DNA from: Balanoglossus misakiensis
Taxonomy: Eukaryota; Animalia; Hemichordata
Length of the DNA stretch: 64,000 bases
Direction of reading: 5' to 3'
NCBI GenBank assembly: GCA_040954595.2
Contig: CM082580.2
Coordinates: 3,958,783-4,022,782, forward strand
Positions 57,301 to 60,208 of the stretch are shown in pieces (position 1 is the first letter of the stretch; the number at the start of each line of letters is the position of its first letter). A program made the translations under genes and the position numbers. Under the pieces are notes generated by a model, which saw only the letters and a program-made list of their open reading frames with translations, was not told the DNA's origin and did not search any database.

Positions 57301-60208
57301 AGCGCCACCACCGTACACTTCCATGCCAAATGTCAATCAACCACAACAAGTTATAATCAACGGCTGCTCCGTAGCATTCAACAACCGGAATTCTGGTGTG
57401 CCCAGCGCCCCTCCACCACCCCCAGATGTCAATGGCCATGTACCACAAGCACCCCCTATGTATCGAAAGACTCCACTGGACGATGATCACGGTTATGAAA
57501 CCCCACAGCCAACAAAACCAAGTATCTATGAAAGACCGCATGCGTATGACAGACTGAGTAATGCTCACGGATATGAGACCATGAGACGAGGTGTTCTTTT
57601 GGCAAATGCAAATGGTGACGATGATTTGAAGAAAAAGAGTGAAGCCTATGTGAATTTACCACCAGACACAAGACAGGCACCTGGCAATGTTGGTTGGTTG
57701 AATGCAAATATAATATATACCATAACTGCTGCCTTTTAATGTTAAGATTTCTCCATTATAATTCAAAATTCTCTCTTCTCTCTCTCTCTCTCTCTCTTTC
57801 TGTCCATTTGTGTCTTGGTGACTTTTTTCTCTCACAGTGCATTTCTCCTAACTTTTCCCACAGTGTATCTGAAACAGTCTGACGGTAACGCAAATAGACT
57901 GCTTCATCTTTGCCACTTTTATTTGCCCATCAACCATGCATGCCCAGAAATACTCCGTATTAACTCTCTTCATGTGATATACTGCTTTACAGATAAAAGA
58001 CTTTATCAGTTTCTCCTTGACCTTGAACTTGAACACCATGCTGAAAAGTTTGCCCAGGAAGGCATCAAATATGACGACCTGCTTACTATGGATCTCCACG
58101 TCCTTAGGGACATTGATGTTCCTATGGGGGACAGAAAAATAATCAAGAAGAGAATCAAGAAACTCAGGAGGGAAACAGAGCATGAAGTATGTATAGTTTT
58201 GTCTTCTTCTTTTTTTCGTGAAGTAAGGAACCGTTAAAAAAAGACGTAGGCTATCTTCGTGATTATCCCACAATGACTGAAGTTTGTCGATTGGTGTGAT
58301 TCATAAGTGACAATCAGTAATGCTTAGTGAAATTCCTCAGGAAAAAAAAAACTTTAGATCTCCAGTTTTTAACTCCCCTCTATGATGCATTCCAATAACC
58401 TATAGTATTTAGAATTACTTTGTTACAAGGCTTATTATCACCACTTTGCTTTTTAGTCACGCCACTTATTGCAATCATGTTTTGATACAATTTCTTTCCA
58501 AAAGTTGCAGGCAGGTAACCATGGCAATGATAATATTCCCAAAGAAATCAAGGTGCAGGAAAAGAGAGTCAGCCATGGTGTTGATTATGTTGATGCAAGG
58601 TCATCTCAAACTCAACTTACGGTATATAAAATGTACTCTGATGTGGTATATCTGTAAATGGGTGTTCTTCAAGTCATCACATTGCATGCTTCATTCCCTC
58701 AGCTGTTCTATTATAGATAAGGTGGGGATATGCCACATACCTCTCATATAAAAACCATACTCGTGTACTTCTAAACACTCATGTGTTATATTTTCACTCA
58801 CATCTAGTCATATAACTTTACGACAACATAATCTGACTAGAATCCATTTTGAAACTTGAACCATAGCAGTGCATCTTTCTTCCTTCCCCATACTGTGTAA
58901 ACTGGTAATTTTTACGACAGGAAATTTTCACGATATCAAAAGAAGCAACTATTAATTTTCGCGATCATTGCATCGTTATCTCAAAAAAACCCACATTTTT
59001 ATGTGATTTTTTTATGTTCGCGTATTTTGGGCTCTCGCAGTTTGCGAAAATTTATCGTTCGTGAAAACTTCCCATTTTACAGTAAATGTGATTGGGACCA
59101 TTGAACTCATGTGGCATTTACCCATCCATCTATGGTAGAACCCAACATTGCATGGTCCTCCATTCTCTCTGCATGTGAAATACCTGACTAATAAATTTCA
59201 CTGCATGTGTTTGTGTTTTGTCTATTAACTTGTACTGTACCTTTCAAACAGCCTTATCACACAGATGACCAATCAGTACCCCGTCAACCAAGTATTCAAG
59301 TTGTCAAGCCAGTTGATGGCAAACATCAACGGCCCCAGGTACTGAAACTGTAGATAGATATCTGAGAGAAATATCATGAATTGCTAAATTGACATTTATG
59401 TGATGCGACATACCAAATAGGCACTTTCAGGAATTTTTTTTGTTATTATGAAAGTCCTGAATCCCCCAAAATTTATATTTTCTGAACCCTTTCACCCCCA
59501 GTTCCCCATATAGAGGTCCAACTCTACCATTGTAAACAATGGATTTGGGTCAAACCATGATGGTGAAAGGGTTCAAGGTCCGATATAGGAAAACCTAATT
59601 ATGTACCTTATACAGAACCATAATTTATACAGTGGTCATCCATGGCACGTGTTTTCTAATGAACCTTGTCTTTTCTCTTTGGAGTGTGGTTTCTTTAATC
59701 TGTTGGCTACTGTTTACCGCCCTCTATGGCATTGTGTAGTTGGTTATTTTGTTTTTTCTTTTGACAGAGCCATATGTATGATGAGGTGAAGCACGTAGAT
59801 TATCCAATCCCTGACAAGTATTTATGTCCTATCACAAGTAAACTGATGGTTCATCCTTTTACTGCAACCGATGGCGTTACTTATGAGAGAGAAGCTATCG
59901 TTGGTAAGTACAACAAAACCGCAACCCTTCTGAAAGTCAGTGTGAAGAAGCTGGAAATTGTAATTTTTTTCATCAATATTTGTACCATTTCAGATTGGTT
60001 CAGCAGGAGCCCTACTTCCCCAGTGACAAGGCAACAGTTGTTTGACTTCAAATTAATGCCCAACACTGAACTTGAGAAGGAAATTCAGAAGTTCAGAAAA
60101 GATAGGAATAAGTCACTCAAGAAGAGGAAGAAGAAGGAAGAAGAAAGACGATTTCAAGAAGAGTCGGAGAGAAGACCAGACACTCCTCTGACAGATGTAG
60201 AAGTCTAA
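28871..60208 (+). CDS. Large type I membrane receptor: SP-MAM-SRCR-LDLa-MAM-LDLa-MAM-SRCRx4-CUBx2-TM-(Tyr/PPxY tail)-SAM-U-box, 35 exons, ~1941 aa
   Basis: Exons 28871-29009, 35140-35384, 35857-36024, 36704-36791, 37886-38224, 38672-38800, 39406-39549, 39944-40047, 40580-40829, 41697-41840, 42339-42482, 43691-43788, 44166-44333, 45362-45458, 46584-46739, 47566-47751, 48210-48338, 48953-49141, 49888-49985, 50217-50342, 51039-51141, 51570-51781, 52509-52725, 53073-53219, 53871-54062, 54587-54628, 54994-55371, 55719-55863, 56455-56561, 57300-57692, 57993-58186, 58505-58621, 59252-59338, 59768-59903, 59994-60208. All GT-AG, every phase compatible, 5826 nt with no internal stop seen. Confidence 0.85.
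30358..30462. repeat. (GTACT)n microsatellite
   Basis: Direct reading. Confidence 0.95.
34886..34982. repeat. Near-perfect ~45-bp-stem inverted repeat (hairpin/MITE)
   Basis: TTCTTAGCTGCAATGATTGTAGCAGGTGCTGCTAGGTTGACTGGT-gtgcaaa-ACCAGTCAACTTAGCAGCACCTGCTACAATCATTCCAGCTAAGAA. Confidence 0.85.
35140..45458 (+). CDS. Receptor N-terminal ectodomain: MAM1, SRCR1, LDLa1, MAM2, LDLa2, MAM3
   Basis: Three MAM signatures ([21 protein letters not shown] / FYYHMYG / GDIAIDD), [20 protein letters not shown], and LDLa [26 protein letters not shown] and [20 protein letters not shown]. Confidence 0.93.
35428..35600 (+). mobile_element. Interspersed repeat fragment with (CCGT) microsatellite core (HINE/pearl-like)
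   Basis: GAGCTTTT..CTGTCTTCCGTCCGTCGTCCATCAACATTTTCTTC..TTCTCTGAAACTGCTGGTCCAATT. A related fragment lies at ~63810-63890. Family assignment is from memory. Confidence 0.45.
36304..36356 (+). ncRNA. Minimal type I hammerhead ribozyme motif (intronic, sense strand)
   Basis: Stem I TCTC 36307-10 / GAGA 36350-53; core CTGATGA 36311-17; stem II GTGAGTC-cagt-GACTCAC 36318-35; GAAA 36336-39; short stem III ACA-tcgt-TGT; cleavage triplet GUA 36347-49. Confidence 0.8.
36806..37107. mobile_element. Palindromic MITE family B, truncated copy
   Basis: Matches the 61292-61635 element (CAAAGTCTCTC..CGCTGCCCTTTT..TGATACAAGACAC..CACAACTTCCATC). Confidence 0.8.
37113..37768. repeat. Nested multi-level inverted repeat (~610 bp foldback)
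   Basis: 37152-37250 is the reverse complement of ~37665-37765, and 37258-37420 of ~37458-37620. Each inner arm is itself a hairpin with apex CCCTCGGGCTATGCCCTCGGG. Confidence 0.85.
40195..40430. mobile_element. MITE family A, second copy (inverted relative to 5985-6227)
   Basis: Reverse-complement match over ~200 bp (ATAAACATTACAATTCATCCACAAATCCCTGAAATTAGATCATT...); TIR GAAGGGGTCGTCG. Confidence 0.75.
40868..41051. mobile_element. MITE family C, TTAA-flanked
   Basis: TTAA-AGATATACGGTCACC ... GGTGACTGTATACCT-TTAA; further copies at 46287-46452 and ~56004-56165. Confidence 0.8.
44426..45040. mobile_element. GC-rich non-autonomous Tc1/mariner-type element with TA flanks
   Basis: TA-CCGTAGTTTGCCGGGTAAGAGCCCC ... 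GGGGTTCTTACCCGGACAACTACGG-TA; internal direct repeat GGGGGGGCTTTAG.CCGGATATGGCCTCGA. Confidence 0.8.
45585..46047. mobile_element. Repeat with subterminal inverted repeat and long terminal hairpin
   Basis: TATTATTATACATCT (45585) / AGATGTATAATAATA (~45895), then palindrome 45904-46047 (AGGTTATTACGAAAATACCGCAAAGTATGCAC..GTGCATACTTTGCGGTATTTTCGTAATAACCT), apex CCCTCCGCTACGCGTCGGG. Confidence 0.65.
46287..46452. mobile_element. MITE family C copy
   Basis: TTAA-AGGTATACGGTCA ... GTGACTGTGTACCT-TTAA; shared core AAATTGAGATCTAGCCAATCA..TTTTCAGTGGGTGGCACAC. Confidence 0.8.
46584..52725 (+). CDS. Receptor SRCR domains 2-5 (5th divergent) plus Pro/Thr stalk
   Basis: [65 protein letters not shown]; degenerate [20 protein letters not shown]; stalk [16 protein letters not shown]. 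Confidence 0.92.
48057..48183. repeat. (GAAT/GAGT/GAAC)n microsatellite
   Basis: Direct reading. Confidence 0.9.
48460..48671. mobile_element. MITE family D (TA-CTGTAAAAC...GTTTTACAG-TA)
   Basis: TIRs with TA flanks; core AATTTTCGCGATATCAAAAGAGGCAACTG. Confidence 0.75.
49218..49350. repeat. Short tandem duplication (~57 bp x2+)
   Basis: ACAGTAC.GCATCACTGATGACATCAGCACATGTACTG.TGACAT occurs twice. Confidence 0.8.
51301..51513. mobile_element. MITE family D copy (diverged)
   Basis: TACCGTAAAACAG ... CCGTTTTACAGTA. Confidence 0.6.
51822..52032. mobile_element. MITE family D copy
   Basis: TACTGTTAAAC ... TTTTACTGTA; core CAGTTGCCTCTTTTGATATCGCGAAAATTTCCTGTCGCGAAAATAA. Confidence 0.75.
53073..55371 (+). 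CDS. Receptor CUB domains 1 and 2
   Basis: [33 protein letters not shown] and [41 protein letters not shown]. Confidence 0.9.
53596..53800. mobile_element. MITE family D copy
   Basis: TACTGTAAAACGGGTTATTT ... AAATAACCCGTTCTACAGTA. Confidence 0.8.
54349..54460. repeat. (CTGT)n/(CT)n/(GT)n compound microsatellite
   Basis: Direct reading. Confidence 0.9.
55719..55863 (+). CDS. Receptor transmembrane exon
   Basis: [49 protein letters not shown]: ~25 hydrophobic residues followed by a basic stop-transfer segment. Not in the ORF track. Confidence 0.9.
56004..56165. mobile_element. MITE family C copy (3'-truncated)
   Basis: TTAA-AGATATACAGTCACC.. with the same core sequence. Confidence 0.7.
57993..58186 (+). 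CDS. Receptor cytoplasmic SAM domain exon
   Basis: [55 protein letters not shown] fits the SAM consensus L..FL..L.L..(Y/H)...F..E.I....LL....L..I.(V/I)..G.RK.I. Confidence 0.85.
58891..59083. mobile_element. MITE family D copy
   Basis: TACTGTGTAAAC ... CATTTTACAGTA; core ACAGGAAATTTTCACGATATCAAAAGAAGCAACT. Confidence 0.7.
59768..60208 (+). CDS. Receptor C-terminal U-box (E3 ligase) domain and basic tail; two exons
   Basis: [66 protein letters not shown] matches the U-box consensus (P..F.CPIT..LM.DPV...DG.TYER.AI..W.....TSP.T...L....L.PN..L...I). Ends ..TDVEV-stop. Confidence 0.93.
   Translation, partial: SHMYDEVKHVDYPIPDKYLCPITSKLMVHPFTATDGVTYEREAIVGKYNKTATLLKVSVKKLEIVIFFINICTISDWFSRSPTSPVTRQQLFDFKLMPNTELEKEIQKFRKDRNKSLKKRKKKEEERRFQEESERRPDTPLTDVEV

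What the first reader, a model, noticed from the sequence alone, without database searches (positions are those of the whole stretch)
57993..60208. SAM + U-box tail resembles the WDSUB1 C-terminus: possible module capture
Seen: SAM followed after a ~85-aa linker by a U-box of the CPIT..LM..P....DG.TYE.EAI..W....TSP.T type; the SAM exon begins at a phase-1 intron. Known: SAM followed by U-box is the C-terminal arrangement of WDSUB1, whose substrate-binding part is WD40. Inference: the WD40 region may have been replaced by a receptor through exon shuffling, or the pairing arose convergently. The usual Asp of LM.DP is His here (LMVHP), which could alter stability or E2 choice.
Basis: partly seen in the sequence, partly recalled or inferred. 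Interest (0 to 1): 0.7.

Follow-up and report, generated by a model that had tools for sequence, protein, structure and literature searches.

The report
Ancient receptor-type U-box ubiquitin ligase
This animal gene, likely from an acorn worm, is predicted to encode a large scavenger-type cell-surface receptor whose inner tail ends in a SAM domain and a U-box, so it likely tags itself or neighbouring membrane proteins with ubiquitin; matching receptors in amphioxus and probably corals lack the SAM, so the likeness to WDSUB1 is likely convergent.

Summary
The SAM exon (57993-58186), an 86-aa linker and a U-box (59768-60208, split by a 90-nt intron) are real. They end a 36-exon, 1946-aa model: signal peptide, 3 MAM, 5 SRCR, 2 LDLa, 2 CUB, one TM helix, a PPxY/tyrosine-motif tail, SAM, U-box. 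A RefSeq protein matches it end to end at 62%. Relatives occur in acorn worms, a crinoid and amphioxus. A 2016 coral survey lists nearly the same layout ending in UBOX.

The amphioxus proteins lack the SAM, the coral listings show none, and so does a TM-PPPY-U-box gene found in unnamed animal contigs. The SAM best matches tankyrase/DGKδ/SANS/ANKS6/BICC1 SAMs and scores 0.2 bits against a WDSUB1 SAM. Intron positions also appear to differ from WDSUB1's.

So the U-box probably sat on the receptor first, perhaps from a WDSUB1-like source (trees unresolved), and the SAM was added later in ambulacrarians. Capture of WDSUB1's SAM+U-box as one module is unlikely but not excluded. The His is unremarkable (14 of 186 other U-boxes).

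Best reading: a receptor-type U-box E3 ligase, an ancient animal U-box family missing from the 2010 census. Activity is untested.

The parts
28871..29009 (+). Exon 1: start codon and signal peptide
   Evidence: Hydropathy peak 2.0 at aa 16; 17 of 46 aa identical to ortholog P0152
35140..36791 (+). MAM domain 1 (exons 35140-35384, 35857-36024, 36704-36791)
   Evidence: Pfam MAM on the first two exons; 66-83% identical to P0152
37886..38224 (+). SRCR domain 1
   Evidence: Pfam SRCR 76.1 bits
38672..38800 (+). LDL-receptor class A repeat 1
   Evidence: Pfam Ldl_recept_a 39.9 bits
39406..40829 (+). MAM domain 2 (three exons)
   Evidence: Pfam MAM on two of the three exons; 70-91% identical to P0152
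41697..41840 (+). LDLa-like repeat 2
   Evidence: Cys pattern in the translation; 77% identical to P0152
42339..45458 (+). MAM domain 3 (four exons)
   Evidence: Pfam MAM on two of the four exons; 64-88% identical to P0152
46584..52725 (+). SRCR domains 2-5 (nine exons) and a short Thr/Pro stalk
   Evidence: Pfam SRCR on 7 exon ORFs; 56-88% identical to P0152
53073..55371 (+). CUB domains 1 and 2 with a 42-nt linker exon; RRRRRS furin-like site at 55245 inside CUB2
   Evidence: Pfam CUB; site position; a basic site at the same place in P0002 and P0060; furin cleavage is inferred
55719..55863 (+). Exon with the single transmembrane helix (55772-55840) and basic stop-transfer residues
   Evidence: Hydropathy 3.6, the only peak besides the signal peptide; TM at the same place in P0002
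56455..57692 (+). Cytoplasmic Pro/Tyr-rich tail (exons 56455-56561, 57300-57692): PPPY at 57305; YDVI, YDRL, YETM, YVNL
   Evidence: 36-49% identical to P0152; 3' donor uncertain (57683 GC or 57692 GT)
57864..57884 (+). Possible 21-nt phase 1-1 micro-exon (uncertain)
   Evidence: AG/GT flanks, donor score 5.4, only 1 of 7 aa identical to P0152
57993..58186 (+). SAM domain, one exon, phase 1 to 0; nearest solved SAMs are tankyrase, DGK-delta, SANS/ANKS4B, ANKS6, BICC1; acidic mid-loop (-4), basic end helix (+7)
   Evidence: Pfam; PDB profile search; Foldseek on the ortholog model, SANS SAM rmsd 0.9 A; charges
58511..59338 (+). Linker exons 58511-58621 and 59252-59338 (both phase 0-0); the second is likely a skippable cassette
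   Evidence: RefSeq isoform pairs P0152/P0002 and P0151/P0001 differ by 38 and 26 aa in this linker
59768..60208 (+). U-box (exons 59768-59903 and 59994-60208): Cys 59825, Ile 59831, His 59852, Trp 59996, Pro 60020, Arg 60029; then a charged helix and C-terminal RPxTPxTDVEV
   Evidence: Pfam; residue positions; Arg aligns with the Arg of UBE4B 'PFNR'; C-terminal motif conserved in P0001, P0002, P0006, P0052

Best explanation
The exons spell one reading frame for a predicted single-pass surface receptor (MAM/SRCR/LDLa/CUB outside; PPxY and tyrosine motifs, SAM and U-box inside) that likely acts as its own ubiquitin ligase, whose U-box was likely on the receptor before corals and bilaterians split and whose SAM was likely added later in the echinoderm-hemichordate line, so the match to WDSUB1's tail is likely convergent. 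Shown: the domains, their order, the open frame, a full-length ortholog, SAM-less relatives in amphioxus and the SAM's sequence class. Inferred mechanism: microbes or glycoproteins bound by the SRCR/CUB/MAM domains cluster the receptor. The SAM then links tails head to tail (acidic mid-loop, basic end helix) or docks a partner SAM. The U-box binds an E2~ubiquitin (Ile, Trp, Pro and Arg kept) and ubiquitylates its own tail or neighbouring membrane proteins. The YxxΦ motifs and the PPxY site (for NEDD4-type ligases) would send the complex into endocytosis and lysosomal sorting, or the chains would serve as a signalling scaffold. The U-box itself may descend from a WDSUB1-like U-box, but not together with WDSUB1's SAM.
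For: One stop-free 1946-aa frame over 36 GT-AG exons with two hydrophobic segments. RefSeq protein P0152 matches residues 1-1946 at 62%, with identity in every exon. Relatives with TM and U-box: Glandiceps P0060, crinoid Antedon P0052, amphioxus P0108 and P0075; tail-only or U-box-only pieces: Glandiceps P0001, Saccoglossus P0006. Amphioxus shares the MAM-SRCR-LDLa-MAM-LDLa-MAM ectodomain (40% over 717 aa, E 2e-158) and a T-x-V/I-x-V/C/M end but has no SAM in two independent annotations. [quoted passage not shown] Locus L001 gives a stop-free TM-PPPY-U-box tail with no SAM (-0.6 bits), with the same exons in L003 and L007. The family SAM profile scores lacewing WDSUB1 0.2 bits; pairwise z is 0-3 against it and 8-29 within the family. 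Best solved SAMs: tankyrase, DGK-delta, SANS, ANKS6, BICC1 for the receptor; BFAR-like 1v85, liprin, SARM1 for WDSUB1. SPMTN is in 47 of 50 WDSUB1-set sequences that show the segment (hand count) and in 0 of 7 deuterostome receptors. The ortholog's U-box model superposes on E2-binding plant U-boxes at 1.0-1.1 A. The Arg aligns with UBE4B 'PFNR', whose F1141 and R1143 lie on the E2/E2~Ub surface (PMC5655547).
Against: No activity, substrate or ligand was tested. The coral link rests on domain lists only: I could not see the Acropora sequences, and a divergent SAM could have been left off those lists. The L001-type tails show no clear similarity to the deuterostome tails outside the U-box (z 1.6-3.0, run on a join that was out of frame after its third exon), and their ectodomain was not identified. 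The 73-column U-box tree is unresolved: the 8 receptor U-boxes form one side of a branch in 14% of bootstrap trees. SAM-to-U-box linkers of 13 and 18 aa (Antedon; a Glandiceps isoform) match WDSUB1's 12 aa. The SAM exon is phase 1-0, not a symmetric shuffling cassette. The Arg position varies across the family (R, K, G, N). Only one annotated WDSUB1, an insect one with a divergent SAM, was available to compute with. The donor joining the tail exon to the SAM exon is weak.
Confidence: 0.65

Rival explanations
1. Module capture: the receptor took WDSUB1's SAM+U-box as one block in place of the WD40 repeats; the SAM later diverged, and corals and amphioxus lost it.
For: Same order and C-terminal position as WDSUB1. 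Short linkers in Antedon (13 aa) and Glandiceps X2 (18 aa), like lacewing WDSUB1 (12 aa). The best U-box tree found holds the deuterostome receptors, L001-type genes and lacewing WDSUB1 together (lnL 0.33 above the free search, p-AU 0.516; group named after seeing the tree). A B. lanceolatum relative is auto-named WDSUB1. SAM+U-box proteins without WD40 exist in sponges (PMC3087547).
Against: Needs at least two SAM losses against one gain. The SAM lacks WDSUB1's leading W-x-x-x-x-V, its IDG and its longer helix 4-5 loop (12 of 60 identical to human WDSUB1 by hand; 0.2 bits). WDSUB1 sequences taken from genomic DNA break right after PVIA(S/A) in the U-box and just before SAM helix 5 (P0135 vs P0158), which implies introns there. 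Here the U-box intron lies 11 codons later and the SAM is one exon. The 43% U-box identity is ordinary: 83 of 186 non-family U-box hits reach it.
Confidence: 0.13
2. The U-box is a weak or non-catalytic scaffold; ubiquitylation comes from NEDD4-type ligases recruited by the PPxY motif, and the protein works as an endocytic scavenger receptor.
For: PPxY is kept in the window, Glandiceps, Antedon and L001-type genes, with PPAY in P0002. The Arg position is G in Glandiceps and N in amphioxus. The tail holds several YxxΦ motifs.
Against: The U-box is kept in every lineage found, with Ile, Trp/Tyr and Pro of the E2 face, and the window's copy has the Arg. The amphioxus proteins keep the U-box but show no PPxY.
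Confidence: 0.15
3. Two genes joined by prediction: a DMBT1/MALRD1-like receptor ending in the exon at 57300-57739, and a separate SAM-U-box gene.
For: The donor after 57665 is the weakest in the gene, and the exon could read on to a stop at 57739. Glandiceps P0001 is annotated as a tail-only protein.
Against: Fused TM-to-U-box proteins in independent annotations of a probable acorn worm (P0002), Glandiceps (P0060), Antedon, two amphioxus species and two Acropora listings. The SAM exon begins with a phase-1 acceptor only about 300 bases downstream, with no start codon or room for a promoter.
Confidence: 0.04

Closest known systems
Cnidarian DMBT-like SRCR+CUB proteins with UBOX (A. millepora CUB1, A. 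digitifera CUB2; PMC5119243 text passage and File S1 rows)
   Same: Signal peptide, MAM-SRCR-(LDL/MAM)-SRCRn-CUBx2, U-box at the C-terminus; 1948 aa against 1946 aa here.
   Different: No SAM listed; a WSC domain listed; mentioned only as a domain combination, with no reading as a ligase in the passages seen; orthology not checked by sequence.
Receptor-type membrane E3 ligases RNF43/ZNRF3 and GRAIL/RNF128, and the MEGF8-MOSMO-MGRN1 complex (PMC12458338, passages)
   Same: Type I single-pass protein that puts a RING-fold E3 domain under an ectodomain; MEGF8 also has a very large ectodomain.
   Different: U-box instead of a zinc RING; scavenger-type MAM/SRCR/LDLa/CUB ectodomain instead of a PA domain (PA recalled); ligase in the same chain, unlike MEGF8; added SAM; about 330 aa between membrane and U-box.
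WDSUB1 (PMC3087547, text parts 1-3 and supplement 7; PMC10238197 passages)
   Same: SAM followed by a C-terminal U-box; U-box of the same broad class (43% to human, hand count).
   Different: No WD40; membrane-anchored; SAM of another class; no SPMTN; different inferred intron positions; a separate true WDSUB1 exists in coral, amphioxus and sea urchin.
DMBT1 / MALRD1 / MAMDC4 (endotubin) (first two are database auto-names of the relatives; MAMDC4 recalled)
   Same: SRCR+CUB or MAM+LDLa ectodomain modules; tyrosine-based sorting motifs in endotubin (recalled).
   Different: None has a U-box or SAM (recalled); DMBT1 ends in a ZP domain (PMC5119243), which is absent here.

Membership tests
U-box E3 ligases | U-box domain above the Pfam cut-off | tested here: met
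   58.6 bits vs cut-off 21.4
U-box E3 ligases | Zinc-free RING-like fold | tested here: met
   Model of the Glandiceps ortholog's tail (mean pLDDT 80) matches plant PUB U-boxes at rmsd 1.0-1.1 A, CHIP at 1.7-1.8 A and UBE4B at 1.9-2.8 A; the window's own spliced U-box was not folded
U-box E3 ligases | E2-facing residues (loop-1 Ile, helix Trp, loop-2 Pro, Arg after it) | tested here: met
   I, W, P, R in the window; Arg aligns with UBE4B PFNR (PMC5655547). That this Arg is the 'linchpin' is recalled; it varies in relatives
U-box E3 ligases | E2-dependent ubiquitin transfer | not testable with these tools
   Needs biochemistry; no E2 sequence was available to the complex tool
WDSUB1 | N-terminal WD40 repeats | tested here: not met
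   Upstream exons encode MAM/SRCR/LDLa/CUB/TM; no WD40 hit in P0002
WDSUB1 | SAM directly before a C-terminal U-box | tested here: met
   linker 13-103 aa across the family
WDSUB1 | SAM of the WDSUB1 type | tested here: not met
   0.2 bits and z 0-3 against lacewing WDSUB1; different nearest PDB SAMs; signature motifs absent by eye; only one WDSUB1 could be computed on
WDSUB1 | U-box groups with WDSUB1 | tested here: inconclusive
   Tree unresolved; p-AU 0.23, 0.20 and 0.52 for the three groupings that include lacewing WDSUB1; SPMTN absent in 0 of 7 deuterostome receptors, present in L001/L003/L007
WDSUB1 | Shared intron positions | tested here: inconclusive
   WDSUB1 introns inferred only from breaks in genome-derived sequences; they do not match the window's; no annotated WDSUB1 gene was available
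Single-chain receptor-type E3 ligases (RNF43/ZNRF3/GRAIL kind) | Signal peptide, ectodomain, one TM helix and a cytosolic RING-fold E3 domain in one chain | tested here: met
PA-TM-RING family proper | PA ectodomain and zinc RING-H2 (recalled definition) | tested here: not met
   Pfam finds neither in P0002
Single-chain receptor-type E3 ligases (RNF43/ZNRF3/GRAIL kind) | Ubiquitylates and down-regulates membrane proteins | not testable with these tools
   No functional data
DMBT1 | C-terminal ZP domain | tested here: not met
   TM, SAM and U-box follow the CUBs
Cnidarian MAM-SRCR-CUB-TM-UBOX proteins (PMC5119243) | Same domain order | tested here: met
   differences: one LDLa and one SRCR fewer listed, WSC listed, no SAM listed
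Cnidarian MAM-SRCR-CUB-TM-UBOX proteins (PMC5119243) | Orthology by sequence | not testable with these tools
   File S1 gives identifiers and domain lists, not sequences

The most novel reading that the evidence does not exclude
An eighth ancient animal U-box family: a scavenger-receptor-type E3 ligase that dates from the cnidarian-bilaterian ancestor, survives in corals, amphioxus, crinoids and acorn worms, and was lost in vertebrates. It would couple microbe or symbiont binding directly to ubiquitylation. In ambulacrarians a polymerising SAM and a spliced linker were added as a clustering switch, rebuilding WDSUB1's tail layout independently.
Probability: 0.45. Interest if true: 0.75.

Novelty: new variant of a known kind. 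Interest (0 to 1): 0.58.

Why it matters
Known receptor-type E3 ligases of animals use RING domains (PMC12458338), and the 2010 census counts seven animal U-box families, none described as membrane-spanning (PMC3087547). A pattern-recognition-type ectodomain wired to a U-box would be a direct route from surface binding to ubiquitylation in invertebrate immunity or symbiosis. It can be tested in corals, amphioxus or acorn worms. It also gives a clear case of one domain pair (SAM+U-box) arising twice, and explains misleading 'WDSUB1', 'DMBT1-like' and 'MALRD1-like' database names.

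Tried and rejected
Expression: no RNA holder was listed for 54900-63500; no evidence either way. No whole genome is held, so the organism's own WDSUB1 could not be compared.

Word-indexed protein searches:
- One search found 0 hits among 1597 candidates, although relatives exist, so that blank means nothing.
- One search found 3 of 437 (the query and two unrelated U-boxes).
- One search found 2 of 10 and no WDSUB1.

ESM Atlas gave nothing usable and generic U-box clusters under 0.9. SAM homodimer prediction: no answer (score 0.00, alignment not used); no evidence for or against binding. 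The U-box:E2 interface could not be modelled, because no E2 sequence was available.

U-box tree: 62 rows chosen from 182 proteins with a U-box hit, 73 columns, bootstrap unsettled. None of five AU tests rejected its grouping. No SAM tree was built, because only 5 family SAMs, 1 WDSUB1 and 1 protist SAM-SAM-U-box were on hand. A first splice of locus L001 was out of frame until a 32-nt exon shared by three loci was found.

Rejected: the His as meaningful; the phase-1 intron as evidence of shuffling (23 of 35 introns); cluster members P0156/P0157/P0159 as WDSUB1 (unrelated sequences).

Three papers were not held. Earlier scan notes: nothing relevant.

Full report
Observation. The exon 57993-58186 encodes a SAM (Pfam SAM_1 30.2 bits, cut-off 23). 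Exons 59768-59903 and 59994-60208 encode a U-box (58.6 bits, cut-off 21.4), split by an in-frame 90-nt phase-1 intron. Two phase 0-0 exons give an 86-aa linker. The SAM exon does begin in phase 1, but so do 23 of the gene's 35 introns, and it ends in phase 0.

The whole gene. Exons from 28871 to 60208 join, all by GT-AG, into one stop-free frame of 1946 aa. The order is signal peptide, MAM, SRCR, LDLa, MAM, LDLa, MAM, four SRCR, two CUB, one transmembrane helix, a Pro/Tyr-rich tail with PPPY and several YxxΦ motifs, SAM, linker, U-box, a charged helix and a C-terminal TDVEV. The weakest joint is the donor before the SAM (scores 1.6-2.4 against at least 4.4 for the other 33). No genome or RNA run was available, so the model rests on homology. 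A phmmer search of 1.84 billion representatives (1158 hits at E up to 0.001, best 150 listed) returned P0002. Its isoform P0152 (XP_070566353.1, auto-named DMBT1-like) aligns to residues 1-1946 at 62% with identity in every exon. The tool cut off its species name; from recall the accession series is the acorn worm Ptychodera flava. The other top hits are from Glandiceps and Saccoglossus, so the window is likely an enteropneust hemichordate (inference).

The family. Relatives with SAM and U-box are P0002, Glandiceps P0060 (CUB-TM-SAM-U-box) and P0001 (tail only), and the crinoid Antedon P0052. Two amphioxus proteins (B. floridae P0108, B. lanceolatum P0075, the latter auto-named WDSUB1) have the MAM/LDLa ectodomain, a TM helix and a U-box, but no SAM; P0108 is 40% identical to P0002 over 717 aa. 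A survey of cnidarian scavenger receptors mentions DMBT-like proteins with UBOX (PMC5119243, passages). [quoted passage not shown] I saw domain lists only, not sequences. Separately, a group of six short U-box hits led to 15 loci. Three of them (L001, L003, L007) carry collinear exons for TM, PPPY tail and U-box; L001 splices into a stop-free 334-aa tail with no SAM. These contigs are unnamed animal-like DNA and their ectodomain was not identified. They may be the 3' ends of the coral-type gene, which is a guess.

Is the tail WDSUB1's? The SAM says no. The family SAM profile scores the only annotated WDSUB1 on hand (lacewing P0158) at 0.2 bits. Pairwise z-scores are 0-3 against it and 8-29 within the family (100 shuffles). 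The nearest solved SAMs are tankyrase, DGK-delta, SANS, ANKS6 and BICC1 for the receptor and a BFAR-like SAM, liprin and SARM1 for lacewing WDSUB1. By eye, the WDSUB1 alignment of PMC3087547 (supplement 7, 52 sequences, read whole) shows a leading Trp, IDG and a longer helix 4-5 loop in most SAMs; the receptor has none of these (12 of 60 identical to human, hand count).

The U-box is ambiguous. It is 29 of 67 identical to human WDSUB1 (hand count), closer than the ortholog's U-box is to CHIP (32-34%) or UBE4B (23-27%). But 83 of 186 non-family U-box hits also reach 43%. SPMTN is in 47 of 50 WDSUB1-set sequences that show the segment, in 0 of 7 deuterostome receptors, and in L001, L003 and L007. 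The tree of 62 U-boxes is unresolved. No grouping was rejected: receptors alone p-AU 0.44; plus WDSUB1 0.23; all SAM-U-box proteins 0.20; receptors plus L001-type 0.43; all animal ones together 0.52, and that last was the best tree found by 0.33 lnL. Genome-derived WDSUB1 sequences break after PVIA(S/A) and before SAM helix 5, implying introns there, whereas this gene has a one-exon SAM and a U-box intron 11 codons later. That comparison is indirect. In favour of capture, the linker is only 13 aa in Antedon and 18 aa in a Glandiceps isoform, against 12 in lacewing WDSUB1. On balance, one gain of a non-WDSUB1 SAM in Ambulacraria is simpler than capture followed by remodelling and two losses.

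The His. At that position 186 non-family U-boxes have D 108, N 27, E 18, H 14; within the family it is H, D, Q or E. LubX U-box 2 has Thr there. It carries no signal.

Mechanism. Shown: topology and domains. The U-box keeps the loop Ile, helix Trp, Pro and following Arg. The Arg aligns with UBE4B PFNR, whose F1141 and R1143 map to the E2 and E2~Ub surface (PMC5655547, passages). The ortholog's modelled U-box overlays an E2-bound plant U-box at 1.0 A. The SAM has an acidic mid-loop (-4) and a basic end helix (+7), and several of its nearest solved relatives (DGK-delta, BICC1, tankyrase) polymerise (PMC9499636, passages). Inferred: ligand binding outside clusters the receptor; SAM contacts gather the U-boxes; E2~ubiquitin is activated on the tail or on neighbouring membrane proteins; YxxΦ and PPxY motifs route the complex to endosomes and lysosomes, or the chains serve signalling. 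Linker splicing, seen in two RefSeq isoform pairs, may tune the reach. The Arg position is K, G or N in several relatives, so activity may differ among them.

Relation to what is known. It works like the single-chain receptor-type E3s RNF43/ZNRF3/GRAIL (PMC12458338, passages) but is not of that family, and it is not WDSUB1 or DMBT1. The 2010 census names seven animal U-box families and does not include it (PMC3087547, text parts 1-3 of 6 read). Searches for a description as a ligase found only the coral listing: U-box+transmembrane+SRCR+SAM domain+CUB, U-box+amphioxus+receptor+domain shuffling, transmembrane E3+U-box+echinoderm+hemichordate, scavenger receptor+U-box+SRCR+invertebrate, U-box+MAM+CUB+transmembrane+ubiquitin ligase (0 papers). 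The library lacks most subscription journals, and a review of membrane-tethered ligases was not held. Other papers seen as passages only: PMC8586995, PMC13228809, PMC11087794, PMC10238197.

Verdict. Observation confirmed. WDSUB1 module capture is unlikely (about 0.13); the convergence option is favoured. The gene is best read as a conserved, largely unnoticed receptor-type U-box ligase: a new variant of a known kind, interest 0.58.

Noticed in passing
L001 2124-5706, L003 about 2870-7069, L007 about 1470-6340: Intron-containing animal-like gene with TM, PPPY and PPAY motifs, U-box (SPMTN) and, in L001 and L007, a C-terminal HSEV; no SAM; a 32-nt micro-exon in all three loci. Its last exon is catalogued as short stand-alone U-box proteins (P0069, 64 cluster members).
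   Followed up: partly
window 55245-55262: RRRRRS furin-like site inside CUB2; basic runs at the same place in P0002 and P0060. The ectodomain may be cleaved near the membrane.
   Followed up: partly
window 60176-60205: C-terminal RPxTP(L/M)TDV(E/D)(V/M/C) is conserved in acorn worms and the crinoid; amphioxus ends TNISV. Possible PDZ-binding and kinase motif (label recalled).
   Followed up: partly
window 59252-59338: Symmetric linker exon; two RefSeq isoform pairs differ by 38 and 26 aa in this linker, suggesting conserved alternative splicing of the SAM-to-U-box distance.
   Followed up: partly
window about 4240-6800, minus strand: DnaJ gene with a cysteine string (HPDK; run of Cys), cysteine-string-protein/DNAJC5-like (Pfam DnaJ; name recalled).
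   Followed up: partly
window about 13300-22500, plus strand: Glycosyltransferase gene with Glyco_transf_7C/CHGN hits at 21741-22115, B4GALNT3/4- or chondroitin-synthase-like; other exons not modelled.
   Followed up: partly
proteins P0030, P0034, P0035, P0042, P0046, P0047 and others: About twenty U-box hits, unnamed where looked up, have hydrophobic helices near the C-terminus: a separate tail-anchored U-box type. P0040 has a cadherin-like domain, a TM helix and two U-boxes.
   Followed up: no
protein P0066 (Protostelium nocturnum): SAM-SAM-U-box protein in an amoebozoan, like the Monosiga WDSUB1-related gene of PMC3087547; shows that SAM+U-box pairing occurs outside animals.
   Followed up: partly
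P0001 and P0060 (Glandiceps talaboti; both listed with a contig of 29,028,597 bases): Two paralogous tails apparently on one contig; both gene models look incomplete (P0060 lacks part of the U-box at the intron position, P0001 lacks the ectodomain).
   Followed up: no
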